18,768 nt of DNA from a virus (taxonomy: Duplodnaviria; Heunggongvirae; Uroviricota; Caudoviricetes): IMG/VR virus record IMGVR_UViG_2718217897_000009, positions 1 to 18,768 of that record. One strand, 5' to 3'. Below, piece by piece: positions 3,044 through 17,689 of the stretch; positions within the stretch are counted from its first letter, which is position 1; each line of letters starts with the position of its first letter. The notes beneath the pieces were generated by a model. It saw only the letters and a program-made list of their open reading frames with translations. It was not told the DNA's origin and did no database searches. Made by a program: the position numbers and the translations under genes.

Positions 3044-3371
3044 TCACGGCGTAAGCAGCACAGAGATCCGCCATAACCCGGTCGCCAGCTATCTGGAACA
3101 ACTGGGGGCATCAGACCCCGAAGCCGCCGCACGTCTGGCATCCACACTTCAGCAGGACCAGAACACCATGAAAACCCCCGTTACCGTGCTTTCTGACATG
3201 CTGCGCGCCATCCGTGACGCAGAGCACGCACAGAGAATCAGTGAAACCACTGAACGCGCCCACCGCAAAGCAGACCTGCTGCGGGGTAGCCTGACCAGTG
3301 GAAACAAAAAACAGACAGAAACGGGACTCACAAATCCCGTAAATGAGCAAAAAACGCGCCGCGATATATGA
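2973..3371 (+). CDS. Hypothetical ORF overlapping the 3' end of the Cox-position ORF in another frame; possible frameshifted continuation
   Basis: Frame 0 from about 3000 to 3371 shows coding-like codon usage (G-rich first position, ctg/gcc/cgt codons). Start is uncertain; the ATG at 2973 follows AGGGAG with too short a spacer. Confidence 0.2.
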   Translation: MQHLTPHTRPDSRITQLWQRLSRNHGVSSTEIRHNPVASYLEQLGASDPEAAARLASTLQQDQNTMKTPVTVLSDMLRAIRDAEHAQRISETTERAHRKADLLRGSLTSGNKKQTETGLTNPVNEQKTRRDI

Positions 3372-3447: not shown

Positions 3448-4407
3448 ATGAAAATTTGTATCGACGACGGCTCCACCAACATCAAGCTGGCATGGACTGA
3501 GAACGGCAAACGCCGCAACGCCATCAGCCCGAACAGCTTCAAGTCGGAATGGTCTGCGCCGTTCGGTGGCACGCAGCCCGCGAACTACATGCTTGATGGC
3601 GTGCGCTATGGTTTTGATCCGGTCAGCGATCGCTTTGTCCAGACGACCGACACGCAATACCAGTACAGCGATGTGAATGTAATTGCCATTCATCACGCGC
3701 TGGTCAAATCAGGCATCACACCACAGGAGGTGGATGTGGTTGTCACCCTGCCACTGAGCGAGTATTTCGATACAAACGCACAGCCGGACATGGCCAACAT
3801 CAACCGCAAAAAAGCGAACGTCATGCGCCCGGTGGAGTACCAGAACGGCGAAGCATTCACTATCCGTAACGTACGGGTTATGCCTGAATCCATTCCGGCT
3901 GGCTTTAAGGCACTGGCTGACATGAGTCCGTTTGAATCCCTGCTGATTGTGGATTTGGGCGGAACCACGCTGGATGTGGCAAAGGTTCAGGGGCAACTGG
4001 CAGGTATTAGCCAAGTGTTTTGCGATCCACACGTAGGCGTTTCTCTGATGGCCGATGCCGTACTGTCGGTGATGGCCACTAACGGTATGCGCACCAGTCA
4101 CCACATCGCCAATACCATTATCGAACATCGCCATGATGAAGCCTGGCTGCGCCAGCACATCCACAATGACGCGCATTACAACAGCCTGATGGCGGTTATT
4201 CGTGAAAAGGAAGAAACACTGAAACAACGCGTGATCCGCGCGCTGGCGGTTTTTTCGGGTTACGGGCGGGTGATGGTTGTCGGTGGCGGGGCGGAGATTG
4301 TGGCACCCGCTATCCGCGAAGCCTGCGGAGTTAATGCGACTTTCATCGCGGACGGGGTGCCACAGTTTGCTCTGGTTAATGGGCTGTACGCAATGAACAA
4401 GGAGTAA
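3448..4407 (+). CDS. parM: ParM/StbA-family actin-like segregation ATPase
   Basis: N-terminus MKICIDDGSTNIKLAW...ISPNSFKSEW and internal DLGGTTLD, VMPESIPAG and VVGGGAE motifs match plasmid R1 ParM/StbA as I remember it. Confidence 0.85.
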   Translation: MKICIDDGSTNIKLAWTENGKRRNAISPNSFKSEWSAPFGGTQPANYMLDGVRYGFDPVSDRFVQTTDTQYQYSDVNVIAIHHALVKSGITPQEVDVVVTLPLSEYFDTNAQPDMANINRKKANVMRPVEYQNGEAFTIRNVRVMPESIPAGFKALADMSPFESLLIVDLGGTTLDVAKVQGQLAGISQVFCDPHVGVSLMADAVLSVMATNGMRTSHHIANTIIEHRHDEAWLRQHIHNDAHYNSLMAVIREKEETLKQRVIRALAVFSGYGRVMVVGGGAEIVAPAIREACGVNATFIADGVPQFALVNGLYAMNKE

Positions 4408-4411
4408 ACCA

Positions 4412-4726
4412 ATGACGACACCAACCAGACGGATAAGTTTCTATCTGAAGCCCGCCGCCGTCAAGAGTGAACAGGAGGCGTGCAATTACCTCGATAGCCT
4501 GCCAGCCTCCGAACGCAGCCGCGCGCAACGCGCGGCCTTTCTGGCTGGGCTAGCACTCATAAAGCGCAACCCAGCATTTGCCTACTGGATGGCCGAATGG
4601 CCAGAGGACAACCTCCCCTTCAATACCGTTAGCATCAAGGAAACATACCAGGCTAATCAGCCTAGCGGAGTTGAATGCAATTTTTATAAAATAAAAAAGA
4701 ATATTCAGACCTTATTCCCAGAATAA
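4412..4726 (+). CDS. parR: ParR-family centromere-binding adaptor
   Basis: 104-aa protein RRISFYLKP...LDSLP.SERSRAQRAAFLAGLAL...LFPE resembles R1 ParR (RRTIAFKLNP...LDSIPQGERSRLNRAALTAGLAL...LFPKE); AAGGAG RBS; immediately downstream of parM. Confidence 0.75.
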   Translation: MTTPTRRISFYLKPAAVKSEQEACNYLDSLPASERSRAQRAAFLAGLALIKRNPAFAYWMAEWPEDNLPFNTVSIKETYQANQPSGVECNFYKIKKNIQTLFPE

Positions 4727-4809: not shown

Positions 4810-5652
4810 TCATGATGAAATTGCCGAAGTTTTTTTATCGTGCTGAAGTACCGCAAATGCCATTAAAACCTCAAGAGAATAGCGACGATAATACTTAACA
4901 AAACCATAATAAAATACTCGGGATGCAGCAATACAAAACAAGAGAAGAAAACAAAAAGGTAACAGCCTGATATTTATATCTATTAAAAAGGATAGAAGGA
5001 ACAGGAACATAAGCAACCAGACTGAAGCGAGAAAAACAAATGTAATGTTTCTACAAAAACCATACAAAGCAACATAGTTTTGCATTTTCACCTGATGATT
5101 TTTAGAATGTTCATACACATAATGATAAGCAAGGCGAAAAAGATCGCCCCTCAAGCCCTTACGTCGATATAGCGTAGATACAGAAAAAACATTTATATAA
5201 CCATCTCGTATTTGCGGCCAAAAGACTTTAATAAGTATAGAATGCAGTGTGGTTTTATGATGTTCTGCTTTATCAAAAGCTGATACAGGAAGTAAAAAAA
5301 CTCCACGGATAAAATTAACTATACTGAACTTAGTATTATGTCGTTTTATTTTCAGGGAGCTTCTTTTAGAAAACAGATAAATTGAAGGATACCCAAGTTT
5401 ACTGTTCATATATTTTTCAATTAAACAGGATGATAGAATAGATATGAAGTGACCTGAAATATATGATAGAACGATTAATACCACATATATAAATACAGTT
5501 ATTATTTCTTTATATTTCAGGATATGGTTAAGAATACCTTCTATATAAACAGGGTTAATTTCAATAGAAAACAAAAAAAGGATAAACAGGAATAACCCAC
5601 CTGGAATTAGATAGCCCAAAAAGTCATAAAATGAAAACGGATTCTGTGTCAC
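4810..5652 (-). CDS. Hypothetical multi-pass membrane protein (280 aa, GTG start), low-GC cargo
   Basis: Long ORF in a markedly AT-rich segment; hydrophobic stretches at about residues 13-30, 50-75, 205-230 and 238-256; no recognised catalytic motif. Confidence 0.6.
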   Translation of the reverse strand: MTQNPFSFYDFLGYLIPGGLFLFILFLFSIEINPVYIEGILNHILKYKEIITVFIYVVLIVLSYISGHFISILSSCLIEKYMNSKLGYPSIYLFSKRSSLKIKRHNTKFSIVNFIRGVFLLPVSAFDKAEHHKTTLHSILIKVFWPQIRDGYINVFSVSTLYRRKGLRGDLFRLAYHYVYEHSKNHQVKMQNYVALYGFCRNITFVFLASVWLLMFLFLLSFLIDINIRLLPFCFLLLFCIAASRVFYYGFVKYYRRYSLEVLMAFAVLQHDKKTSAISS

Positions 5653-5691: not shown

Positions 5692-6189
5692 TTATTTGTT
5701 TTTCCGTAAAGGATTAGCTTTCCATCTTCTTACTAACCATTCGAATTCTTGATATGTAGTATCCGAATTAATGCTTTCTCTGATTGCTTTAATTAATGGC
5801 TCGGCAATATCATATGTCTCTACAACTGTTGTGTAAGATGTTCTTTTTATCATTTTTTCATCATAAATACCTTCACGAATACTTACAGCAACTCGCTCGT
5901 AAAAATTTAAAATATATTGAAATTTTCGACGCTCGGCCATTTCTTCATCTGTTATTGTGCAACCATCACAAGGAAAAACATAAGAACGAAATGATTTGCC
6001 TGAACGATGCACTTGTTTCAGGGTATGCAATGACTCTATATATTGCATATCTTGCCGACTCTCAAAAAGAAAGTTGGCCGTTTGAGTTTTTTTTGCGGTA
6101 CGCACATTGTAGATAATGGTTCCAATGGCAACCAAAACGCCAAGCAGAACAATAGCATTGCTGATGATTTGTAGTGTTATTGGGTTCAT
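5692..6189 (-). CDS. Hypothetical protein with a single N-terminal TM helix (165 aa), low-GC cargo
   Basis: ORF with hydrophobic N-terminus (IISNAIVLLGVLVAIGTIIY) followed by a charged soluble domain; same strand as and 39 bp upstream of the 280-aa gene. Confidence 0.6.
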   Translation of the reverse strand: MNPITLQIISNAIVLLGVLVAIGTIIYNVRTAKKTQTANFLFESRQDMQYIESLHTLKQVHRSGKSFRSYVFPCDGCTITDEEMAERRKFQYILNFYERVAVSIREGIYDEKMIKRTSYTTVVETYDIAEPLIKAIRESINSDTTYQEFEWLVRRWKANPLRKNK

Positions 6190-6214
6190 CCTATTTCATC
6201 CATAAAAAAGGCGG

Positions 6215-6225
6215 GGAGCAAATCC
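6215..6225. repeat. IS186 target-site duplication, left copy (GGAGCAAATCC)
   Basis: Identical 11-bp sequence directly flanks both ends of the element. Confidence 0.75.
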
Positions 6226-7564
6226 CATAAGCGCTAACTTAAGGGTTGAACCATCTGAAGAATGCGACGCCTCGGTGCCTCGTTAAGACGATGCCTCGCG
6301 TTCTTCAATTGCGTTTTGTAGGCTGTCAGGGATACTGTCCCACGAATGGCCACCTGTAAGCTCCAGATGACCATTTTTGTTATTCTCCACAACGAGTTAG
6401 TTCTTCTTTTCGGATCCGGCACTTCTGGGGGGGAAATCCAGCGATGGCTGGATTATGTCGTCAATTAAAAATGCGGCGAGTAGATTAGCAAATATCCACG
6501 CTTTCGCGAGTTCAGGTTCCTTTGCACGCAAAGCATCCAGGTGCAGCAAACTTTTGAGCCGCTTAAAAGCCAGTTCAATTTGCCATCGCAGACGGTAACA
6601 ATCAGCCACTTGCTCTGCTGAATATTCATCTTCCGGTAATGATGTTAGCAATAGCACATGGCCCGCTGCTTCCAGCGTTTCCGCCTGAACTACTCGTCCT
6701 TTTCGACGATTCTCGCTGAGCAGTCGGGTTTTACTGATTAATGCTTTTTCGGGAGGAAGTGATACGGCAATGAGACGTGCCGGAAAGGGAGCTCCGGCTT
6801 TTTTATTACCTGAATTGCCTATCATTACAGTGGTTTCACCGTTCTTACCGCAATCCAGCCCGCGCAGAAAACCCATCATGTCAAAGCGCATTCCTTCTGC
6901 AGTTAACCAGCGCAATCCTCGCCAGTGAACCCGGACGATATAATCAGCTTCTCCAAAAGCAAGTGAGCGGATACATTCGGGACGCGAACCGAATCCCCGG
7001 TCAGCAATGCGTATCTCGTCTGCCGTTTGCGCAAATCGGTCCAGCCGTTCAGCGTCTCTGCTGTCGGTTAGCTCAAAATCAGTGAACTGACAGGTATGAG
7101 GATCATATCCCATATGTAGTCGCCATTCAGCGCTGCCGCCCCCGGGCGCACTGATTGCTGTTCCATCGACAAGACGCAATCTCTTTCCGCTTGTACAACC
7201 CGTAACTGCGGCGCGTACAGCAAGTGTTTGTGCGGCAAGTATGCCAAACCAGTCGGCGGCATTCCGCAGCCGCTTCAGGAGAGCCACGTCAGATAATGTT
7301 GCAACGTCATGGAGCTGAGCCCATGCAGTGACTTCACGTAATGACATCCCCCCGGGGCCGTAAGCCAGCCCCAGACGTAGCAGAGTTGCAGCATCACGAA
7401 TTTCGCGGCGGCGGGTTAGAGCCCCGGCATTACGTGCCGAAGTATCCAGTTCTTCGGGCTTACCAATATGGGCCAGAATTGCTGACCAGTTATCGTGAGA
7501 GTAATTCATCGGCACGTTAAATCATATCAGGCGTAATACCACAACCCTTAAGTTAGCGCTTATG
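6226..7564 (-). mobile_element. IS186 (IS4 family), 1339 bp, perfect 23-bp terminal inverted repeats CATAAGCGCTAACTTAAGGGTTG
   Basis: Terminal inverted repeats at 6226-6248 and 7542-7564 read directly; the internal ORF matches the IS186 transposase; flanked by an 11-bp direct repeat. Confidence 0.9.
6397..7509 (-). CDS. IS186 transposase (DDE, IS4 family), 370 aa
   Basis: Translation MNYSHDNWSAILAHIGKPEELDTSARNAGALTRRREIRDAATLLRLGLAYGPGG... matches IS186 transposase over its full length as I remember it; the ORF track starts two codons earlier (MPMNY). Confidence 0.9.
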   Translation of the reverse strand: MNYSHDNWSAILAHIGKPEELDTSARNAGALTRRREIRDAATLLRLGLAYGPGGMSLREVTAWAQLHDVATLSDVALLKRLRNAADWFGILAAQTLAVRAAVTGCTSGKRLRLVDGTAISAPGGGSAEWRLHMGYDPHTCQFTDFELTDSRDAERLDRFAQTADEIRIADRGFGSRPECIRSLAFGEADYIVRVHWRGLRWLTAEGMRFDMMGFLRGLDCGKNGETTVMIGNSGNKKAGAPFPARLIAVSLPPEKALISKTRLLSENRRKGRVVQAETLEAAGHVLLLTSLPEDEYSAEQVADCYRLRWQIELAFKRLKSLLHLDALRAKEPELAKAWIFANLLAAFLIDDIIQPSLDFPPRSAGSEKKN

Positions 7565-7575
7565 GGAGCAAATCC
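7565..7575. repeat. IS186 target-site duplication, right copy (GGAGCAAATCC)
   Basis: Identical to 6215-6225. Confidence 0.75.
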
Positions 7576-7736
7576 CCGCCTCATTAGAGGTCAACGTAGC
7601 TTAGAAACCATCAAATTCATCATGCATTTTTTTCATATCAACCCCCTCATAGAAATCATAACCACGTTTTGTGGTTTTTGTGATGCATAAACTACATCAA
7701 AGGCAAGCTACGGTCAAATATATGGGCATGCTTACC

Positions 7737-7766
7737 TGCACAAAAGTGCACAAATTTGCACAATTT
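7737..7766. repeat. Three direct repeats of TGCACAA phased exactly 10 bp apart
   Basis: TGCACAA at 7737-7743, 7747-7753 and 7757-7763, followed by a T7 run; helical-turn phasing suggests a protein-binding array. Confidence 0.5.
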
Positions 7767-8075
7767 TTTTGAACGACTTTTTACCCTTCCGGCCCGCGTG
7801 GCAGCTGGATCCGTCAGGGATCCGTGCATGCACAAAAAAACGCGTTTTTGTTGCGCGCAGGTGCCGGGGGAACAGCCCGCAATTTGGGGTCTGAAAGCAT
7901 CCTCAGAAATCGCCAGAAATGCTGCTGATTGTGCCCCTGACGCGATGTTTTATTGGTTGTGTGGTGAAGTATGGGCTGATGCATCACATGCCTGTGATGC
8001 ACTTTGATGCGACGTGTGCTGACAGGTTATTCAACCTGGTAGATCCCTGAGATGCCTGGTGCGTGACACACCGGA

Positions 8076-9185: not shown

Positions 9186-9751
9186 CAGAACTCAATCACC
9201 CGCATTCCTGTTGCACCGTCCTCATCGCCCAGCGGCTCGTTAATGACGGCAAGCATGGTTGCCCACGCGAGGTCGCCGTGGTTTACGCCGCGTGTGCGGT
9301 CTGTTTCATACGTTATTGCCCCGCCCGCCGTTTTTGCCTTGCGCACAGCGTTGAATGCCCTGACCAGCTCACGTTCGCCCCGGTCATACTCCCAGCGCCC
9401 CGCACGAATAATCTGCAGCATCTTCAGCACAAGCGCGCGTTTGGATGCCAGCGTGAACGTGTACGGCACGGCGGCAGGCCAGAACCGCCGCACTATCTGG
9501 TACACTGCCTCACCGTTACCGCCGGTCACGTCGATACCAATGTGCTGGACGTTGTATTTGTGCGTGAACTGCTCAATCACACGGGCCTGCTCTTCAAATT
9601 CCAGCCCCTGCACCTGCAACGTCTCCACCGTGCGGAATTTGCCGCCCCTGACGGCAGGCGGTACAACAACAGACAGCGCCCCGCTGACGTAGCAGGAAAC
9701 AGGGGGATTTGCCCCTGTTTTTTTGTTCAGAATGCAGCCTTCACCATTCAT
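9185..9751 (-). pseudogene. 5'-truncated terminase large subunit (C-terminal nuclease domain only; ATPase domain missing)
   Basis: 188-aa ORF with terminase-nuclease-like features (IGIDVTGG ... VNHGDLAWATMLAV near the C-terminus) but no ATPase domain. P2 gpP is about 590 aa. The first ~18 codons overlap a hairpin/T-run and a tail-gene remnant, so the annotated start is probably spurious. Confidence 0.55.
9696..9723 (+). terminator. Rho-independent terminator-like hairpin (AAACAGGGG/CCCCTGTTT stem, T7 run)
   Basis: Inverted repeat followed by TTTTTTT on the plus strand. Confidence 0.45.
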
Positions 9752-10980: not shown

Positions 10981-13900
10981 TTAGTCCCTGTCGCGGAAGC
11001 TGTTCATGCCTGTACGCGCCTGTCTGCGCATCTCTTCGCGGACGGCCTCACCAACCAGTTTTGCCAGTTCGCGCGGATTCTGTGTGTTGACGTTGTGCAG
11101 ATGTACATGTATCTCACCGGAAAACGCAGCAGCCTGTGGTTGTGGCGTAGCTTCCCTTCTGGCCGCTTCCGGTCGCAACGGGGGCCGGATAGCCTCCGCG
11201 ACGGGAGCGGAAGCCATCACCGCCCCCGTCATACCTTCAGCCACGTTACGCGGCTGCGGCAGTGCGGAGACCTGGCGGGCCACGTTCACAACGGGAGCGG
11301 GGGCACTCACCGCAGGGGTGGGCAGTACACCTGTCAGTCTCTGCCAGAGCATTGTCAGTGCATCCGTCAGCCCTACGCCCGCCGATACCGCCTGCACCGT
11401 CCGGACAACCTGCGGTGCTTTCCACTCGCCGTGAATGATTTCGGGTCCGGGCAGATTTTTGAAAACAATATCGCCGGGACCGACGCGCCTGCGTGTTTCC
11501 TCAAGAAGCCCGCCTGTATTGCTGGCGGTTTTCTGTATCCCCTGCCGGAACCATGCCTCATCCAGCGGGGATTTGCTGCCGGGTTTGCCGACCGGATTGT
11601 CCGCCGTTCCCCTCACCTCTCCGGGAACAGCAGGGGCAGGTTTATTGTCACCGTTGTTTTCCGCTGCATCTGATGACCACGACCATGTTTTCTGCACCAT
11701 TTTTTTCTGTGCAGGATCCCACTCCCACGCAACCGGCGCTTTTTGTGTGGACTGTTTTGCGGCGCTCTCCTGGAGTTTTTGCGTCTCCTTCTGTGCCTCT
11801 TTGATGCCGTCCGGGATGACACCCAGCCACTTCAGCACGGTACCGAGGCCATCAAGGAGCAGCGTCATCGGCCCCAGCACAATGTTCTGAATGACCCACC
11901 CCAGCGTTTTCCCGAACGACTCCCCTGCACTGGTGCATTTGTCGAGCGTCTCTTTTGAGGCGTTTGCAGGTTCAAGCAGGCGGGTGAACCACTCCCACAC
12001 GGCTTTGATGCCGTCACCAATCAGCCCGAACACCGGAGCCAGCGATGCAAAGGCTTCCCGCAGCGGTTGCAGCGCCTCCCACACTCCGGCAAAAAAGCCG
12101 GAAAAAAACGCGCTGATCGGATCCCAGTATTTCCACACCAGAACCGCGCCGCCCACCAGGGCGGCAACAATCAGCCCGACCGGACTGAACAGCGCCCCCA
12201 GTGCGCCACCCAGAACCGACACCGCCCCCGTGACCAGCCCCCACAGCGCAGGCAGCCCCGTCAGGCGCAGTGCCATCGCAGACACAAGCCGGACAGCACC
12301 ACCAATGCCACCGCCCCCCGTCAGCAGCCCCAGTCCCAGTTGCAGTTTTGCCAGCGGCCCCGCAATCAGCCCGAGCGTCAGTGACAGCGCACCGAACGTG
12401 GAAGACAGCGCCAGAACACTCCCGCCGGTCAGCACCAGGACTCTGACCAGCGCCTGATGCTCTCCGGCCCATTCGCGCATCCGGGTCACCCACGCGCTCA
12501 CCGTCTGAACCAGCCCGCGCAAATCCTCGGTCACAGTACCGAAGATGTCCGTGCGTAGCCCTGAGAACGCACCACTCAGCGCCTGAATATCGCCGGAAAG
12601 ATTACCGCGCAGCGTCTGCCCCATGCGGTCTGCCACGCCGCTGACATCACCCAGGTTGTCACGGACATCGGCCAGCGCCTTTAAGAACTGCGGGATCTGG
12701 TCAACGGAGAGGTCTTCAACGGGTGTGCCGAACAGCGCAATGGCCGTGTTCGCCCGCTCTGCCGGGTCACGGATGGCCAGCAGTGCACGGGCGGTCACCT
12801 GCATCGCCTGACGAGCGGTGCTGCCTCCCTGTGCAATGGCAGCAGACACCCGCTCAGCATTCAGGCCGAGAGTCTCATACGCTGAGACACTGGATTTCGA
12901 CATATCCGAACCCCGGATGCTGAACTCCTTCACGGCATCGCCGGTTTTGTCCAGCGCAAACTTGCCCTGCTTTGCCATCTCAACCAGCAGACTCATTGTC
13001 TCGCTGCCGGTGAAGCCCATGTTGCGGAAGTGGGTGGAATACTCGTGCAGAATTTCCGGCAGTTCATCGCGCATTTCAGCGGACATACGCTGCATCCCTG
13101 CCGTCATCAGGTTAGTAGCCTCGTCACTGCTGGCAGCCAGCCCGTTCTTCATCATGATGGCAGCGGCCTGAATGCTCTGCGGCACATCAACACCAAAGAC
13201 GGTCCGCATATCCAGCGCACGACGGCTGATGCGCTCCAGTTCCCGGTCGCCGGTGTCGCCCAGTGCACCGAGCGTACTGCGTACCGCACTCACAGCCTCC
13301 GCAGCACCGGCAAAATCAGCGAGACCGTCAGCCTGTATGTTACGAATAATGTGGGTGTAACGTGCGCCATCCTGTGCGCCTTCCCCCGAACCGGCTGCGA
13401 TGACCGCACCGTGCTGTTCGGACTCCATCGCCGGAGCCATCATACGCTGCGCCGCATACAGGCCGCCTGTACCCGCCGCCATCGCCACAGCCCCTGTGTT
13501 GCGCAGTTTTTCCGCCTGTGCCTTCGCGGCCTCATAGCGGCTCTGTGCCTGCGTCACGCGAGCCAGAGCCTGCCGTTCACGCTCGAGCTGCTCGTTGTAC
13601 TGCTGTGTACGGCGAACGGCACTTTCAATGGTGCGGCTGCTGCCGGAAAGCAGAATGCCGTGTTTGCGCATTTCCCCTGCCGCCGCCTGAAGTTTTTCGC
13701 GTTCGCGCGTGCGCAGCTCGTTCAGGCGCTCAAGCCGCGCGGAGAGTGCCGCCAGCGTTTCACGCTGCTTTTCGGAGAGGATGTTACCGTTCTGCTCTGC
13801 CTTTCGCAGCCCGGCGAGCCTCTGCTCCGCGCGGGCAATCTGTTCGCGGTATTTACTGAGATTTCCGGCGGCACGTTCGAACACCTTCGACTGCCTGTCG

Positions 13901-14067
13901 AGCGTCTGTATGTTGTCCTGCGTCTTCTGAAGGGATTCAGTGAGAGCGCCCACCTGACGGCGGGCGTTTTCGGTCGGGCGTGTCAGCCGGTCAATTGCGC
14001 CAAAGCTGACACGAATATCAAGGGATTTCACTGTTGCGGACTCCGCTACGTTGCGCCGCCCGCTCAC
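10981..14067 (-). CDS. Tail tape measure protein (gpT-like), 1028 aa, GTG start
   Basis: Very long ORF with an N-terminal coiled-coil-like region, a central Gly/Ala/Leu-rich hydrophobic segment and a position between E/E' and U; typical of tape measure proteins. Confidence 0.9.
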   Translation of the reverse strand: MSGRRNVAESATVKSLDIRVSFGAIDRLTRPTENARRQVGALTESLQKTQDNIQTLDRQSKVFERAAGNLSKYREQIARAEQRLAGLRKAEQNGNILSEKQRETLAALSARLERLNELRTREREKLQAAAGEMRKHGILLSGSSRTIESAVRRTQQYNEQLERERQALARVTQAQSRYEAAKAQAEKLRNTGAVAMAAGTGGLYAAQRMMAPAMESEQHGAVIAAGSGEGAQDGARYTHIIRNIQADGLADFAGAAEAVSAVRSTLGALGDTGDRELERISRRALDMRTVFGVDVPQSIQAAAIMMKNGLAASSDEATNLMTAGMQRMSAEMRDELPEILHEYSTHFRNMGFTGSETMSLLVEMAKQGKFALDKTGDAVKEFSIRGSDMSKSSVSAYETLGLNAERVSAAIAQGGSTARQAMQVTARALLAIRDPAERANTAIALFGTPVEDLSVDQIPQFLKALADVRDNLGDVSGVADRMGQTLRGNLSGDIQALSGAFSGLRTDIFGTVTEDLRGLVQTVSAWVTRMREWAGEHQALVRVLVLTGGSVLALSSTFGALSLTLGLIAGPLAKLQLGLGLLTGGGGIGGAVRLVSAMALRLTGLPALWGLVTGAVSVLGGALGALFSPVGLIVAALVGGAVLVWKYWDPISAFFSGFFAGVWEALQPLREAFASLAPVFGLIGDGIKAVWEWFTRLLEPANASKETLDKCTSAGESFGKTLGWVIQNIVLGPMTLLLDGLGTVLKWLGVIPDGIKEAQKETQKLQESAAKQSTQKAPVAWEWDPAQKKMVQKTWSWSSDAAENNGDNKPAPAVPGEVRGTADNPVGKPGSKSPLDEAWFRQGIQKTASNTGGLLEETRRRVGPGDIVFKNLPGPEIIHGEWKAPQVVRTVQAVSAGVGLTDALTMLWQRLTGVLPTPAVSAPAPVVNVARQVSALPQPRNVAEGMTGAVMASAPVAEAIRPPLRPEAARREATPQPQAAAFSGEIHVHLHNVNTQNPRELAKLVGEAVREEMRRQARTGMNSFRDRD

Positions 14068-14598
14068 GCCAGCTCATCACCTCGACGAGAGGCATTGAGA
14101 ATATCCCGCCGGGCGACCAGTTAAACACGACTGCTATATCGGCGACCAGTTCTTCAACGTTGTCGAACTTCGCCAGCGTGATTACGCTTCCATCACCGCC
14201 ACGGACGGTTTCGCAGACTCCGTGGGAGCCAAAAAATTCGCCACCAGAGTTGCCAGCGCCACGAAATCACCGGTGGACAGTGACTGAATTTCTGCCAGCT
14301 TCAGGCGTGGTGCGGTCACGCGCGAAAGCAGCGTCATCATCGGGTCCGTTTTGAGGTTCAGCACCTCAATCAGAGACAGCCCGCGCAACGAGCCTGCCTG
14401 GCGGATTTCCTCGCCAATCTCCACATAGTCAATAACGCGTTCGCCACGCACCACCGGGCAGGATAACTGCACACCCGTTTTTTCCTCTGCGGCTTCTGCG
14501 TTATCCACGGTGTTTTCCTCTGCCACATCGATGTTTTCAGTGGTGGTGTCACCTGCGACGATTTCGCTGTTCATGATGTCATCTTTCTTTGCTGCCAT
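14018..14598 (-). CDS. gpE+E' fusion produced by programmed -1 frameshift at T TTT TTG (14230-14236); extension ends at TGA 14018-14020, overlapping the tape-measure start
   Basis: The -1 frame after the slippery site is open for about 70 codons (FFGSHGVCETVRGGDGSVITLAKFDNVEELVADIAVVFNWSPGGIFSMPLVEVMSWRERAAQRSGVRNSEIP) and terminates inside the start of T, the geometry known for P2 E/E'. Confidence 0.55.
14182..14598 (-). CDS. Tail assembly chaperone gpE-like (zero-frame product, 138 aa)
   Basis: ORF between the tube and tape-measure genes with a GGAG RBS; contains the conserved slippery heptamer near its 3' end. Confidence 0.75.
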   Translation of the reverse strand: MAAKKDDIMNSEIVAGDTTTENIDVAEENTVDNAEAAEEKTGVQLSCPVVRGERVIDYVEIGEEIRQAGSLRGLSLIEVLNLKTDPMMTLLSRVTAPRLKLAEIQSLSTGDFVALATLVANFLAPTESAKPSVAVMEA

Positions 14599-14613
14599 TT
14601 TTCTTTCTCCTGT

Positions 14614-14632
14614 GGCGGCACAATGTGCCGCC
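14614..14632. other. Perfect 19-bp palindrome GGCGGCACA-A-TGTGCCGCC in the FII-E intergenic region
   Basis: Read directly; no T-tract; possible mRNA stem-loop modulating expression between tube and chaperone genes. Confidence 0.4.
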
Positions 14633-14644
14633 CTGTTAATGCTG

Positions 14645-15160
14645 TCAGTTCAGACCGAGCGCCGAACTCACGCGGTCACCAAAGACGTTCTGGCCGTCTT
14701 TTTTGTAGATGAAGTTCAGCAGGTCGATTTCTGTCACATCGCTGTCATCCACCGACTCCTTGTAGTAGGTGTTTTTGACGGCGAAGGTGTACTGTGTGGT
14801 GTCGCCCTGTTTGGTTTCGCCACGGTCGATTTCCGTGATGCGTCCGCGCATCTCCACCTCAAGGATCTGACTTTCCTCACCATCGGTGAACAGCTCACCC
14901 ACAAAGCGCAGCGCCACTTCGTTAATGTCAGTGGCGTATTCCTGGAGCAACTCTTTTTCAACACCGCCGGTGGTGAATGAGGCATCCAGTGCGCCGTCAT
15001 CCAGTCCGAGGTCAATATACACCGCACCCAGCATCCCGCCACCGCGATAGGCTTCGGTTTTTCGGGTCAGTTTAGGCAGAGTGACGCCTGTCACCGTGCC
15101 GATTTTGTTTTTGCCGTTCACAAACAGCGTGAACTGGCGAACGTAACGTGGTACAGCCAT
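14645..15160 (-). CDS. Tail tube protein gpFII-like (171 aa)
   Basis: Translation MAVPRYVRQFTLFVNGKNKIGTVTGVTLPKLTRKTEAYRGGGM...VDLGLDD resembles P2 FII; GGGAGGTG RBS; start abuts the FI stop. Confidence 0.9.
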   Translation of the reverse strand: MAVPRYVRQFTLFVNGKNKIGTVTGVTLPKLTRKTEAYRGGGMLGAVYIDLGLDDGALDASFTTGGVEKELLQEYATDINEVALRFVGELFTDGEESQILEVEMRGRITEIDRGETKQGDTTQYTFAVKNTYYKESVDDSDVTEIDLLNFIYKKDGQNVFGDRVSSALGLN

Positions 15161-16342
15161 TTACGCACCTCCCAGCGTTGCAAAAGCGGAGTCGAAATAC
15201 TCATCCGTGAAGGTCTGGTACAGCGTCAGGTCTTCCATCGGCGGCACTGATGTGTACTTGTAGCGGATACGCACGCGCCCCTGACGTAAATCCGTCGTGC
15301 CGTTGTCCAGCACGTCATACCAGCACTCCGCACCGATAAGTTTTCCGGCGGTGACCAGGGCATTGAGTTTTGCGCGGATGGCGCTAATCACGTCCTTCAC
15401 GTTCGCCGGGGTCAGCGGTTCGTCAATGGTTTCGAACTGCGCCTCAGCGATGGTATCTGCCAGAATCTGCGCTGTGCGCGTGTACACCTCAAAGATGTAG
15501 TCGCTGGTTTCGGCAGTACGGTTCCCCCAGAAGCGGAAGCCGTTACGGCGAATAATCGTGGTGATTTCCTTGTTGTTCAGGTTGTTCGCATCACTGTCTT
15601 CAGCCTGCAACGACCAGAACACCTGCTGCGACATACCGAGCACATTTTTCAGCGCCACGTTGGACAGTGACTTGTGCCAGCCCTGCTCACTGTCAATCCG
15701 CGCACGCAACCCGCACGCATACGCCGCAGCCGGAAATGTTTCGTTATTTCCGCTCACCGGGTTGTAGGCAATGAAGTCAGGCCACAGCAGCATCAGCTCA
15801 CGCGCGGAGAACTTAGCGCGGTAAGTGATTGCCTCCGCCATCGTGCCACAGCCGTTACATCCGGCGTACACAAAGGCGCGGAGCTTGTCCGCAATGACGC
15901 ACAGGGCAGATGTGACAGCTTCGGTATCAAGGCCGGGAGCCGCCAGAATACGCGGGCGGTAACCAATGCTCTCGTCCTGTTCGGCAACCAGCAGCGCATA
16001 CATACCCGTATAGCTGCCGTCAGCCTGCGAACCACCGATGACAAGCTGGTCCTGTGTCTCACCTTCCTCTCCGGCTTCTGCCACACGCACCACGATAACC
16101 TTCGGGCTGGTCTGGTCGGAAATCGCCTTGAGCGTTTTGTACAGCGTGCCTGTTGTGCCTGCCTTACCCAGCACATTCGCCACGCGGGTGATCAATACGG
16201 GCCTGTTTAACGGGAACGCGTCGCTGTCTGCATCGTCCGCCGTGGCCACGATACCGATGACACTGGAATCAATGTCATTAATCGCGGTCACGAGGTCGGT
16301 GTTTTCTTTGACGCGTGCGCCGTGAAAGCGTGTTTCACTCAT
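15161..16342 (-). CDS. Contractile tail sheath protein gpFI-like (393 aa)
   Basis: Translation MSETRFHGARV...PLNRPVLIT...KLRAFVYA...ELMLLWPDF...QGWHKSLSNV...IRRNGFRFWGNRT...YTRTAQ resembles P2 FI; start chosen at the internal ATG preceded by AGGAGG. Confidence 0.9.
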   Translation of the reverse strand: MSETRFHGARVKENTDLVTAINDIDSSVIGIVATADDADSDAFPLNRPVLITRVANVLGKAGTTGTLYKTLKAISDQTSPKVIVVRVAEAGEEGETQDQLVIGGSQADGSYTGMYALLVAEQDESIGYRPRILAAPGLDTEAVTSALCVIADKLRAFVYAGCNGCGTMAEAITYRAKFSARELMLLWPDFIAYNPVSGNNETFPAAAYACGLRARIDSEQGWHKSLSNVALKNVLGMSQQVFWSLQAEDSDANNLNNKEITTIIRRNGFRFWGNRTAETSDYIFEVYTRTAQILADTIAEAQFETIDEPLTPANVKDVISAIRAKLNALVTAGKLIGAECWYDVLDNGTTDLRQGRVRIRYKYTSVPPMEDLTLYQTFTDEYFDSAFATLGGA

Positions 16343-16505
16343 GAGCACCTCCTGGTGTTTTTTCTGTGGCACTATCCTCCCGAAAAACACCCCGACACTC
16401 ACGCGCCGCCCCTTCTCGCCGCTCTCCTACAACATGCGCGGCTCGCGGTGTATTTCGCGTGTGTGGAATGATTTGCAGGACGAAGACACTGACGGAGAAA
16501 GCGGG

Positions 16506-17639
16506 ATGAACCTTTCAGGCATTAACGGATACCTCGCGGGGCTGGCAGAGTGCGTGAAGATACCGGATTTTTCCGTCACAACTGACAACGCGGAAACCGG
16601 AAAAAAAGAGGAAAACGAGGCGCTGACCCGACGGGTCATCTCGCTGGCAATGACCGACAACCGGGGATTTGAAGCAGACCAGTTAACCCTCACGATTGAC
16701 GACTGCGACGGCAGCGTGCGTCTCCCGAAGCGCGGGCAGAAGCTGGGGCTGGCGCTGGGCTGGAAAGGTGAGGCGCTGACGGACAAGGGAGCCTTCATCG
16801 TTGACGAGGTGACACACGAGGGACCGCCGGACAGACTCACCATTACGGCCAGCAGCGCAGACTTCCGCCAGGAGTTCAACGTGAAGCGTGAAGTGTCCTG
16901 GCATGACGTGACGGTGGGGCAGGTTGTTTCTGCCATCGCGTACCGTTACGGGCTGAAAGCGCAAATCAGCGCCTCACTGGCAGGGGTGGAAATCGACCAC
17001 GCCGACCAGACGGAGGAAAGCGACATCTCGTTCCTCACGCGTATGGCAGACATGCTGGGAGCAATCGCCACCATCAAGAACGGCGCACTGCTTTTCATCG
17101 TGCCCGGACAGGGGGTGAGCGCCAGCGGAAAGCCGCTGCCCTCATTCGCCATCACCCGCAGCAGCGGTGACAGCCATCACTTCCGCATTGCAGACCGGCA
17201 GGCGTACACGGGGGTACGCGCTTACTGGCTGGACCTGGACTTTGGCAAAAAGAAAAAAGTCAGCGTGAAGAAACGTGGTTCCACCCAAAAAGCAAAAAAG
17301 GAGAAAAGCAGCAGCCGCGAGGGGGATTACATGGAGGGCGCAGACGGCAATGTGTACGTCATGCGCCAAACCTTCAAAAACGAGGAGGCCGCACGCCGTG
17401 CGGCGGCGGCAAAGTGGCAGCAGCTACAGCGCGGTGCGGCTGAGTTCTCCATCACACTGGCACGCGGTCGCCCCGACCTGTACCCCGAAATGCGCGGCAC
17501 GGTATCCGGTTTCAAGAGCGACATCGACGCGGAAGACTGGGTGCTGGCGAAGGTGGAGCACAACATCGACGACAGCGGCTTCACCACGCGGCTTGAGCTG
17601 GAATTAAAAATTCCTGAATGGATAGCACAACAGGAATAA
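16506..17639 (+). CDS. Tail protein gpD-like (late control D family), 377 aa
   Basis: Translation contains ...TDNRGFEADQLTLTIDDCDGSV.LP.RG..L.LALGWKG...SWHD...SFLTR...HHF.IADR.AYTGV...EFSI.LA.GR.D.Y.E..V.VSGFK...W...V.H...SGFTT.LELE, typical of the P2 D family; GGAG RBS 8 nt upstream of ATG 16506. Confidence 0.85.
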   Translation: MNLSGINGYLAGLAECVKIPDFSVTTDNAETGKKEENEALTRRVISLAMTDNRGFEADQLTLTIDDCDGSVRLPKRGQKLGLALGWKGEALTDKGAFIVDEVTHEGPPDRLTITASSADFRQEFNVKREVSWHDVTVGQVVSAIAYRYGLKAQISASLAGVEIDHADQTEESDISFLTRMADMLGAIATIKNGALLFIVPGQGVSASGKPLPSFAITRSSGDSHHFRIADRQAYTGVRAYWLDLDFGKKKKVSVKKRGSTQKAKKEKSSSREGDYMEGADGNVYVMRQTFKNEEAARRAAAAKWQQLQRGAAEFSITLARGRPDLYPEMRGTVSGFKSDIDAEDWVLAKVEHNIDDSGFTTRLELELKIPEWIAQQE

Positions 17640-17689
17640 CCGGAATAAAATCACGACGATTCACCTTCACGAAAAAGGAGGTCTTCGTC

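What the first reader, a model, noticed from the sequence alone, without database searches (positions are those of the whole stretch)
6204..7584. IS186 inserted into a GC-rich hairpin immediately upstream of the cargo cassette
Removing the element and one copy of the 11-bp duplication reconstructs AAAAAA-GGCGGGGA-GCAAA-TCCCCGCC, a perfect 8-bp stem. On the minus strand this is followed by T6, i.e. an intrinsic terminator only about 14 nt upstream of the start codon of the 165-aa cargo gene. The site has the GGGG-N-CCCC form that I recall IS186 prefers. The insertion puts the transposase in the same orientation as the cargo genes, 37 bp upstream of them, so it may have altered their expression (read-through or a hybrid promoter) or separated them from their native control region.
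Basis: partly seen in the sequence, partly recalled or inferred. Interest (0 to 1): 0.5.

Follow-up and report, generated by a model that had tools for sequence, protein, structure and literature searches.

The report
IS186 splitting a prophage terminator hairpin
A common E. coli jumping gene (IS186) has landed in its known preferred target, a GC-rich terminator hairpin just upstream of two accessory genes in a decayed P2-type prophage; this is ordinary IS186 behaviour, and the main by-product is an unannotated, conserved tiny gene next to the hairpin.

Summary
Window 6226-7564 is an intact IS186B/IS421 copy, 100% identical to thousands of E. coli copies, with 23-bp perfect inverted repeats. 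It is flanked by an 11-bp duplication, GGAGCAAATCC.

Removing the element and one repeat copy gives exactly the sequence found in 280 complete E. coli genomes, including strain EC0026B at the same glsA-copA locus. That empty site is a -19.4 kcal/mol hairpin followed by T6, ending 14 nt before the DUF4760 start codon. It matches the published IS186 target, GGGG(N7)CCCC.

The same position is occupied in eight other genome records, four in each orientation and in different prophage backgrounds. It is therefore a recurrent hot spot, like the lon promoter.

One correction: the hairpin is not at the edge of the cargo cassette. It lies inside the cassette's conserved leader, in this order:
- a promoter-like element
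- a 5' stem-loop
- an 11-codon micro-ORF (MKKMHDEFDGF)
- the terminator hairpin
- the DUF4760 gene

The insertion destroys the terminator and puts 1.35 kb between the leader and the cargo genes. The effect on expression is untested.

The IS186 event itself is already-known biology and of low interest. The DEFDGF micro-ORF, which occurs widely in phage contigs, is the only potentially new item.

The parts
6226..7564 (-). IS186B/IS421 insertion sequence, 1339 bp. Terminal 23-bp perfect inverted repeats lie at 6226-6248 and 7542-7564.
   Evidence: 100% identity to annotated IS186B/IS421 copies in E. coli. Inverted repeats found.
6397..7509 (-). IS186 transposase gene (370 aa, intact), co-directional with the cargo genes.
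   Evidence: ORF list. Pfam DDE_Tnp_1, E = 1.6e-26. The element is 100% identical to the AST19 copy, whose transposase is annotated WP_001300563.1.
6215..6225 (.). Left copy of the 11-bp target-site duplication GGAGCAAATCC.
   Evidence: Only a single copy is present in empty sites.
7565..7575 (.). Right copy of the 11-bp target-site duplication GGAGCAAATCC.
6204..6217 (-). Cargo-side half of the split terminator. On the minus strand this is the 3' stem arm TCCCCGCC (6217-6210) followed by T6 (6209-6204).
   Evidence: The terminator is called in the empty locus L002 at 12007-11983 (minus strand).
7573..7582 (-). Leader-side half of the split terminator. On the minus strand this is the 5' stem arm GAGGCGGGGA.
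7601..7636 (-). Unannotated, conserved 11-codon micro-ORF MKKMHDEFDGF*. A strong Shine-Dalgarno sequence GAGGGGG lies at 7648-7642.
   Evidence: In the six conserved codons, third positions vary in 6 of 6 and first and second positions in 1 of 6 each.
7655..7717 (-). Promoter-like region of the cargo leader, with three elements. (1) TTGACC (7717-7712), 17-nt spacer, TAGTTT (7694-7689). This element is conserved as TTGAC(T/C)-N17-TA(A/G)(T/A)TT in many homologous leaders. (2) An E. coli-specific ATCACA-N18-TATGAT at 7684-7655. (3) A stem-loop AACCACAAAACGTGGTT at 7676-7660.
   Evidence: Consensus scans only. No transcript data.
5692..6189 (-). First cargo gene, a 165-aa DUF4760 protein.
   Evidence: Pfam PF15956, E = 1.1e-34. 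PHROG 2284, unknown function. No PADLOC hit.
4810..5652 (-). Second cargo gene, 280 aa, function unknown.
   Evidence: PHROG 12528, unknown function. Weak PADLOC Csx27 match, E = 1.2e-5.

Best explanation
This is a recent, ordinary transposition of an active IS186B copy into one of its canonical targets, GGGG(N7)CCCC.

Here the target is supplied by the stem of an intrinsic-terminator hairpin. The hairpin sits in the 5' leader of a DUF4760 + 280-aa cargo operon. That operon occupies the gpA-gpQ (cos-proximal) variable slot of a decayed P88-like (P2-family, Xuanwuvirus) prophage between glsA and copA.

Staggered cuts two bases into the G and C runs duplicated 2+7+2 = 11 bp. The insertion splits the two stem arms 1.35 kb apart, so the terminator can no longer form. 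It also places the whole IS between the conserved leader (promoter-like element, 5' stem-loop, 11-codon micro-ORF) and the DUF4760 start codon.

The site is a recurrent hot spot. The same position and duplication are found in both orientations in other E. coli lineages, which is how IS186 behaves at the lon promoter.

Shown: the identity of the IS, the target duplication, the empty site, the motif, the recurrence and the conservation of the leader.

Inferred:
- The hairpin terminates or attenuates transcription in vivo.
- The cargo genes normally depend on read-through from the leader promoter.
- In this orientation any remaining cargo transcription must come through the IS, from the leader promoter or the transposase promoter. 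No strong minus-strand terminator is predicted between 7564 and 6190.
For: - **Identity of the element.** 100% identity to IS186B/IS421, with intact inverted repeats and transposase.
- **Empty site.** It is exact in EC0026B at the same locus (2 mismatches in 6226 bp of left flank) and present in 280 genomes overall.
- **Target motif.** The target fits GGGG(N6/N7)CCCC. That motif has only 54 sites in K-12, and one of them was hit 16 times (PMC5009759).
- **Duplication length.** A resident K-12 IS186 next to nupC sits in a similar hairpin, AAAAAAGCCGGGGATAATTCCCCGGTTTTTTT, with an N6 core and a 10-bp duplication. A published IS186B capture has an 11-bp repeat (PMC12102499).
- **Recurrence.** Eight occupied records, four in each orientation, all share the same junctions. 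They fall in at least three prophage backgrounds.
- **Independent hits at this locus.** AST19 and EC0026B share a 6.5-kb deletion that the window lacks. AST19 carries the IS in the opposite orientation and EC0026B is empty. Separate insertions are the simplest history.
- **Precedent.** IS186 is reported at the same lon-promoter position in opposite orientations (PMC3045373).
- **Hairpin.** -19.4 kcal/mol, z = -4.65, lost in both halves after insertion. A hairpin plus T5-6 is present in all 29 distinct homologous leaders. The Citrobacter phage stem carries a compensatory G-C to A-U change, and the Pantoea stem is entirely different.
Against: - Nothing contradicts the structural account.
- The functional part has no transcript data.
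- The terminator stem is mostly invariant among relatives, so covariation support is modest: 2 of 7 pairs change on both sides, and 17 to 50 of 500 shuffles reach the observed values on the covariation measures.
- The promoter assignments are consensus matches only.
- The genome the window comes from is not in the complete-genome collection, so its own history cannot be traced directly.
Confidence: 0.9

Rival explanations
1. The insertion is adaptive rather than a neutral hot-spot hit. On this view, cells were selected either because the IS silences a costly membrane-protein cargo, or because read-through from the IS with loss of the terminator raises cargo expression.
For: - The insertion recurs in several lineages.
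- The cargo lies in the known P2 gpA-gpQ defence hotspot (PMC9122126).
- The terminator 14 nt from the start codon suggests that expression is normally kept low.
Against: - Only 8 of 288 site-bearing genomes are occupied.
- The orientations are 4:4, which argues against selection for read-through activation.
- Mutation-accumulation data explain repeated hits at single GGGG(N6/7)CCCC sites without selection.
- The cargo ORFs stay intact and identical in occupied and empty loci.
Confidence: 0.12
2. There was a single ancestral insertion. The two orientations and the several backgrounds arose later, by in-situ inversion (recombination between the 23-40-nt inverted ends) and by horizontal spread or gene conversion between prophages.
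For: - All occupied loci have identical junctions and duplications.
- The IS ends plus the palindromic target form 40-nt, 88% complementary inverted arms (I1).
- All IS copies are identical in sequence, so they carry no phylogenetic signal.
Against: - Identical junctions are expected from a site-specific staggered cut, as reported at the lon promoter in both orientations.
- 280 empty sites are interspersed among the same prophage types.
- At the glsA-copA remnant, a single origin needs both an inversion and a precise excision. AST19 and EC0026B share a deletion that the window lacks, yet they differ in occupancy.
- Only 1 excision was seen among 857 IS events.
- The remnant prophage lacks most structural genes, so it probably cannot spread as a phage. 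That last point is inference.
Confidence: 0.07
3. The hairpin is not a working terminator for the cargo transcript. It could be only the terminator of the micro-ORF gene, or a DNA-level element, with DUF4760 transcribed from its own promoter. In that case the IS has little regulatory consequence.
For: - Micro-ORFs ending in DEFDGF and followed by a hairpin occur in many phage contexts without DUF4760, which suggests a self-contained unit.
- The stem sequence is more conserved than pure structure would require.
Against: - Only 14-20 nt separate the T-run from the DUF4760 start codon in 29 distinct leaders, which leaves no room for a separate promoter downstream of the hairpin.
- No promoter-like site is predicted between the hairpin and the start codon.
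- The loop, where a -35 element would have to lie, is not conserved.
Confidence: 0.1

Closest known systems
IS186 insertion at the lon-promoter hot spot of E. coli (SaiSree et al. 2001, cited in PMC3045373), and the IS186 target motif GGGG(N6/N7)CCCC (Lee et al. 2016, PMC5009759)
   Same: The element is the same, and so is the target form: palindromic G4/C4 runs flanking a 6-7 nt core. The duplication covers the core plus two bases on each side. The same position is hit repeatedly, in either orientation.
   Different: Here the target is an intrinsic-terminator stem in a prophage cargo leader, not a housekeeping promoter. No phenotype is known for this site.
Resident IS186 copy downstream of nupC in E. 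coli K-12
   Same: It is also inserted in a GC-rich hairpin flanked by A and T runs (AAAAAAGCCGGGGATAATTCCCCGGTTTTTTT), with the duplication GGATAATTCC. This shows that terminator stems supply IS186 targets naturally.
   Different: The core is N6, giving a 10-bp duplication. That hairpin follows the end of a chromosomal gene rather than lying in a leader just before a start codon.
P2-like phage gpA-gpQ (old/tin) defence hotspot (Rousset et al. 2022, PMC9122126)
   Same: The cargo sits between the replication gene fragment and portal gene Q, next to the packaging region. [quoted passage not shown]
   Different: The accessions of this cassette appear only in that paper's loci listing (supplementary file 6), so I found no sign that it was tested for anti-phage activity. 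PADLOC has no model for it. ParM and StbB look like backbone genes in P88-like phages rather than cargo.
Leader-peptide transcription attenuators and leaky-terminator leaders (for example trp, pheL, tnaC)
   Same: A short translated ORF with a strong Shine-Dalgarno sequence is followed closely by an intrinsic terminator and then the structural gene.
   Different: No alternative antiterminator pairing was identified. The peptide is conserved in sequence (DEFDGF-COOH) across unrelated phage contexts, which is not typical of amino-acid-sensing leaders. No regulation has been demonstrated.

Membership tests
IS186 (IS4 family) | Near-identity to the IS186 reference, about 1.34 kb long | tested here: met
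   1339 bp, 100% identical to copies annotated IS186B/IS421. The published length is 1338 bp; the one-base difference reflects the ambiguous terminal base.
IS186 (IS4 family) | Perfect 23-bp terminal inverted repeats | tested here: met
   CATAAGCGCTAACTTAAGGGTTG at 6226-6248 and its reverse complement at 7542-7564.
IS186 (IS4 family) | Single DDE transposase of about 370 aa | tested here: met
   ORF 6397-7509 (minus strand), Pfam DDE_Tnp_1, E = 1.6e-26. The element is 100% identical to the AST19 copy, whose transposase is annotated WP_001300563.1.
IS186 (IS4 family) | Target duplication of about 10-12 bp at a GGGG(N6/N7)CCCC site | tested here: met
   The target is GGGG-AGCAAAT-CCCC and the duplication is GGAGCAAATCC. 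The motif is from PMC5009759. The empty site was verified.
Intrinsic (Rho-independent) terminator | Stable GC-rich stem-loop directly followed by a U-tract on the transcribed strand | tested here: met
   An 8-10 bp stem, 5-nt loop and T6; -19.4 kcal/mol, z = -4.65. Called by the scanner in the empty locus. Present in 29 of 29 distinct homologous leaders.
Intrinsic (Rho-independent) terminator | Transcripts actually end at the U-tract | not testable with these tools
   No transcript data. This needs Term-seq, 3'-RACE or in vitro transcription.
P2-like gpA-gpQ hotspot cargo | Located between the replication gene A and portal gene Q of a P2-family (pro)phage | tested here: met
   Integrase, C-like repressor, gene A fragment, ParM and StbB lie to the left, and portal Q and a truncated terminase P to the right. 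The hotspot definition is in PMC9122126.
P2-like gpA-gpQ hotspot cargo | The slot holds different genes in related phages | tested here: met
   P88 and other P88-like phages share the backbone only from about window 7737 onward and carry other genes in this slot.
P2-like gpA-gpQ hotspot cargo | Anti-phage activity of the cargo | not tested
   No PADLOC family matches DUF4760. Both PHROGs are of unknown function. The cassette is listed in the Rousset supplement, but I found no sign that it was tested.
Leader-peptide attenuator | Short translated ORF immediately upstream of a terminator that precedes the structural gene | tested here: met
   A 9-12 codon ORF with a strong Shine-Dalgarno sequence in all 29 distinct leaders. 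Pairwise codon differences are 915 synonymous against 132 nonsynonymous.
Leader-peptide attenuator | Mutually exclusive antiterminator structure, or regulated read-through | tested here: inconclusive
   Folding shows only the terminator and small weak helices. A conserved AACCTCT between the stop codon and the hairpin could pair with the Shine-Dalgarno sequence, but this was not tested. No Rfam family matches.

The most novel reading that the evidence does not exclude
The hairpin that IS186 hit is the terminator of an undescribed, widespread phage micro-gene encoding an 8-21-residue peptide ending in DEFDGF-COOH.

In DUF4760 cassettes, this micro-gene and its terminator would form a leader that gates expression of the membrane-protein cargo, for example by leaky or conditionally suppressed termination. 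The GGGG(N6-7)CCCC stem makes that gate a built-in IS186 hot spot, so E. coli lineages recurrently uncouple the cargo from its control.

The existence and conservation of the micro-ORF are well supported:
- At least 119 viral contigs carry it, against 0 for a permuted control.
- Variation among homologues is concentrated at third codon positions.

That it is unreported, and that it regulates the cargo, are not established.
Probability: 0.3. Interest if true: 0.55.

Novelty: already known. Interest (0 to 1): 0.22.

Why it matters
The IS186 event adds one more documented hot spot for a well-characterised element. It also shows that GC-rich terminator stems are natural IS186 targets, so it matters little for the biology of insertion sequences.

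It has some practical value. Strains with the site empty, occupied in one orientation and occupied in the other exist at the same locus. They offer a natural series for testing how the DUF4760 cargo of P2-family prophages is controlled.

The by-product is more interesting. A conserved, unannotated micro-ORF plus terminator lies in front of the cargo, and the same DEFDGF peptide ending occurs across many phage types. If that is a real functional micro-protein or leader, it is a feature that standard annotation misses.

Tried and rejected
- **Hybrid promoter at the junction.** The scan found no sigma-70-like site of at least 9/12 between the IS tip and the DUF4760 start, and hand inspection of the IS tip found no usable -35 hexamer. 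I did not adopt this idea.
- **Hairpin as a cassette-boundary or backbone element.** Rejected, because homology with P88-like phages carrying other cargo starts about 150 bp further right, at window ~7737.
- **Known RNA family for the leader.** Rfam gave only a sub-threshold chance match to SorX, 19 bits against a gathering score of 46.6.
- **Known defence system.** PADLOC gave nothing for DUF4760 and only a weak Csx27 match for the 280-aa protein.
- **P2 cos sequence.** GGCGAGGCGGGGAAAGCAC is not found within 3 mismatches, so I give no exact cos coordinate.
- **Original target paper.** SaiSree et al. 2001 is not held in the library. I used Lee et al. 2016 and PMC3045373 instead.
- **IS186 outward promoters.** The literature search returned nothing useful.
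- **Naming the micro-peptide.** A tblastn search of the phage collection with the 21-aa T4-like peptide and a PHROG scan of three micro-peptides (21-34 aa) both found nothing. Full-text search for 'DEFDGF' found no relevant paper.
- **Covariation test of the terminator stem.** On a MAFFT alignment it gave only modest support, because the stem is nearly invariant and two divergent hairpins misalign.
Full report
**1. The observation**

Reading 5900-7900 and the repeat search confirm the anatomy.
- A6 lies at 6204-6209 and GGCGGGGA at 6210-6217.
- The element spans 6226-7564, bounded by perfect 23-bp inverted repeats (CATAAGCGCTAACTTAAGGGTTG).
- GGAGCAAATCC is repeated directly at 6215-6225 and 7565-7575.
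- TCCCCGCC lies at 7573-7580.

The exact repeated string is 13 bp, because the terminal C and G of the element extend it. The sequence alone cannot distinguish a duplication of 11, 12 or 13 bp.

The 1339 bp are 100% identical to copies annotated IS186B/IS421, which occur in 2220 of 5426 complete E. coli genomes with a median of three places per genome. The 370-aa ORF on the minus strand (6397-7509) is a DDE_Tnp_1 transposase.

The 165-aa ORF starts at 6189 on the minus strand, 14 nt after the T6 run and 36-37 nt from the IS tip.

**2. The empty site**

I joined the flanks with one repeat copy and searched the complete E. coli genomes.
- Five EC0026B-derived records match the 2000-bp reconstruction in one piece at 100% identity.
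- AST19, AST205 and E100341 match it in two pieces 1350 bp apart.
- EC0026B carries the same glsA-copA prophage remnant as the window, with 2 mismatches in 6226 bp of left flank. It has GGCGGGGAGCAAATCCCCGCC once.

**3. The hairpin**

The intact sequence folds as a 10-pair stem with a 5-nt loop at -19.4 kcal/mol, z = -4.65, with no shuffle folding as well. The scanner calls it a minus-strand terminator in the empty locus. In the window no terminator is called at either half, and both junction RNAs fold no better than shuffles.

**4. Target preference**

Lee et al. 2016 (PMC5009759) define the IS186 target as 5'-GGGG(N6/N7)CCCC-3'. K-12 has 54 such sites, and one was hit 16 times independently.

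The site here is GGGG-AGCAAAT-CCCC. The duplication is the 7-nt core plus two bases on each side.

The K-12 copy beside nupC sits in AAAAAAGCCGGGGATAATTCCCCGGTTTTTTT, with an N6 core and a 10-bp duplication. A published capture of IS186B reports the 11-bp repeat GGGGTGCCCCC (PMC12102499).

The motif is expected 0.39 times in a window of this size. Two other, unoccupied instances are present.

**5. Recurrence**

Junction-specific queries gave these counts:

| State of the site | Records |
|---|---|
| Empty | 280 |
| Occupied, window orientation | 4 (LS4 twice, MDR_56, MSI001) |
| Occupied, opposite orientation | 4 (AST19, AST205, E100341, ST131 isolate 46) |

All occupied loci that I fetched have the same insertion point and the same duplication. 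They lie in at least three backgrounds: the glsA-copA remnant and two variants of a complete prophage.

At the remnant, AST19 and EC0026B share a 6.5-kb deletion (window 11170-17682) that leaves a fragment of the tape-measure gene, whereas the window keeps the block. AST19 has the IS in the opposite orientation and EC0026B has none. Two separate insertions are the simplest history.

Same-position, opposite-orientation IS186 insertions are reported at the lon promoter (PMC3045373). The window's own genome is not in the collection.

**6. Context**

The window holds a decayed P2-family prophage between glsA and copA. In order it contains:
- an integrase
- a C-like repressor
- a fragment of replication gene A
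- ParM and a StbB-like protein
- the 280-aa gene and the DUF4760 gene, both on the minus strand
- the hairpin with the IS
- portal gene Q and a truncated terminase gene P

This is the gpA-gpQ hotspot of Rousset et al. 2022 (PMC9122126). [quoted passage not shown] PADLOC has no model for it, and both proteins fall in PHROGs of unknown function.

In P88-like phages, ParM and StbB are backbone genes and the variable slot lies between them and the portal gene.

**7. Where the hairpin really sits**

Phages with other cargo align to the window only from about 7737 rightward. The 160 bp between the hairpin and that point therefore belong to the cassette.

On the minus strand this stretch contains a strong Shine-Dalgarno sequence and an 11-codon ORF, MKKMHDEFDGF* (7636-7601), ending 18 nt before the hairpin.

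The 78%-identical Citrobacter phage Shae_phiSM keeps the ORF (MKKVFDEFDGF*). Its hairpin has a compensatory G-C to A-U change and an unrelated loop.

I compared 29 distinct leaders: the window's own reconstructed leader plus homologues from Xenorhabdus, Kluyvera, Enterobacter, Dryocola, Klebsiella, Rahnella, Atlantibacter, Pantoea and viral contigs. All 29 have the following, in order:
- a Shine-Dalgarno sequence
- a 9-12 codon ORF ending (F/Y/H/Q/L)DE(F/Y)D(G/W)F-stop
- a hairpin of -14 to -19 kcal/mol
- a T5-6 run
- about 14-33 nt of spacer, then the DUF4760 start codon

In the six conserved codons every third position varies, but only one first and one second position do. Pairwise codon differences are 915 synonymous against 132 nonsynonymous.

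Formal covariation support for the stem is modest, because the stem is almost invariant.

A promoter-like TTGAC(C/T)-N17-TA(A/G)(T/A)TT recurs about 50-70 nt upstream of the micro-ORF start in many of these leaders; in the window it lies at 7717-7689. It is followed by a stem-loop whose sequence differs between lineages. These are consensus matches only.

**8. Consequences, inferred**

Only about 14-33 nt separate the T-run from the DUF4760 start codon (14 nt in the window), and no promoter-like site is predicted there. DUF4760 is therefore most likely transcribed by read-through of the hairpin from the leader promoter.

The IS destroys the hairpin and inserts 1.35 kb. In the window orientation the leader, the transposase and the cargo all read the same way. 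The scan found only one weak terminator-like site on that strand within the IS (6509-6496). Read-through into the cargo is therefore possible, but it has not been demonstrated. No hybrid promoter is predicted at the junction.

The 4:4 orientation split and the 8/288 occupancy fit a neutral hot spot better than selection for activation.

**9. Side observation**

A permuted control matches none.

Only 36 of the 119 matches precede a DUF4760 gene. The others include:
- minimal 8-codon ORFs of the form M[KYFNL]DEFDGF*
- P2-like loci with a different 174-aa cargo gene
- loci with a candidate endolysin gene 1.0-1.4 kb downstream (judged from ORF N-termini only, no domain search)
- large contigs (about 92-174 kb) where a 21-aa version precedes a 340-aa ORF beginning MKILHTGDWHLG

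Many are followed by a GC-rich hairpin. I found no name for this peptide in PHROGs, in the phage collection or in the held literature.

**10. Verdict**

The finding is real and correctly interpreted, but it is ordinary and well-documented IS186 behaviour. Novelty: already known. Interest is low. The leader micro-ORF is the only part that may be new.

Noticed in passing
window 7601-7636 (minus strand); Shine-Dalgarno sequence at 7642-7648: An unannotated 11-codon ORF, MKKMHDEFDGF*, lies 18 nt upstream of the hairpin. It is conserved with a synonymous-substitution pattern in 29 distinct DUF4760 leaders across Enterobacterales and viral contigs.
   Followed up: yes
IMG/VR loci L065-L183 (for example L068, L071, L079, L093, L114, L174): ORFs of 8-21 codons ending DEFDGF-stop occur in at least 119 viral contigs, against 0 for a permuted control. 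Most are not next to DUF4760. Contexts include P2-like loci, loci with a candidate endolysin gene downstream, and large (92-174 kb) contigs. Many are followed by a GC-rich hairpin. No name was found in PHROGs or the held literature.
   Followed up: partly
window 7655-7717 (minus strand) and homologous leaders L010-L062: A promoter-like TTGAC(C/T)-N17-TA(A/G)(T/A)TT is conserved in many leaders. In many relatives an ATTACC-N5-GGTAAT palindrome overlaps the -10 element. It is followed by a stem-loop (window 7660-7676, AACCACAAAACGTGGTT) whose sequence changes between lineages while staying self-complementary.
   Followed up: partly
window 11170-17682: A 6.5-kb block of P2-type tail genes is absent from AST19 and EC0026B, which join the flanks at a 4-bp overlap. 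On the minus strand it carries the tape-measure, an unassigned 138-aa ORF, tube and sheath genes, and on the plus strand a gpD-like gene. The minus-strand genes are inverted relative to the gpD-like gene and ogr, compared with my recollection of the standard P2 gene order (not checked here).
   Followed up: partly
L009 (E. coli K-12 derivative, nupC-pdeA intergenic region): The resident K-12 IS186 copy also sits in a GC-rich hairpin flanked by A and T runs, AAAAAAGCCGGGGATAATTCCCCGGTTTTTTT, with the 10-bp duplication GGATAATTCC. About 29 nt of its flank resembles the flank in the window.
   Followed up: yes
window 3105-3119 and 9702-9715: Two further GGGG(N6/7)CCCC motifs (GGGGCATCAGACCCC and GGGGGATTTGCCCC) are unoccupied potential IS186 targets.
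   Followed up: no
L126 and L157 (IMG/VR contigs): Two viral-contig records also show the micro-ORF running straight into an IS186 end at the same junction. L157 has the orientation opposite to the window. These may be additional occupied copies.
   Followed up: no
window 3448-4726: The ParM and StbB-like partition genes are shared by P88, Shae_phiSM and other P88-like phages. They therefore look like backbone genes rather than cargo, although the Rousset supplement lists them as part of the hotspot content.
   Followed up: partly
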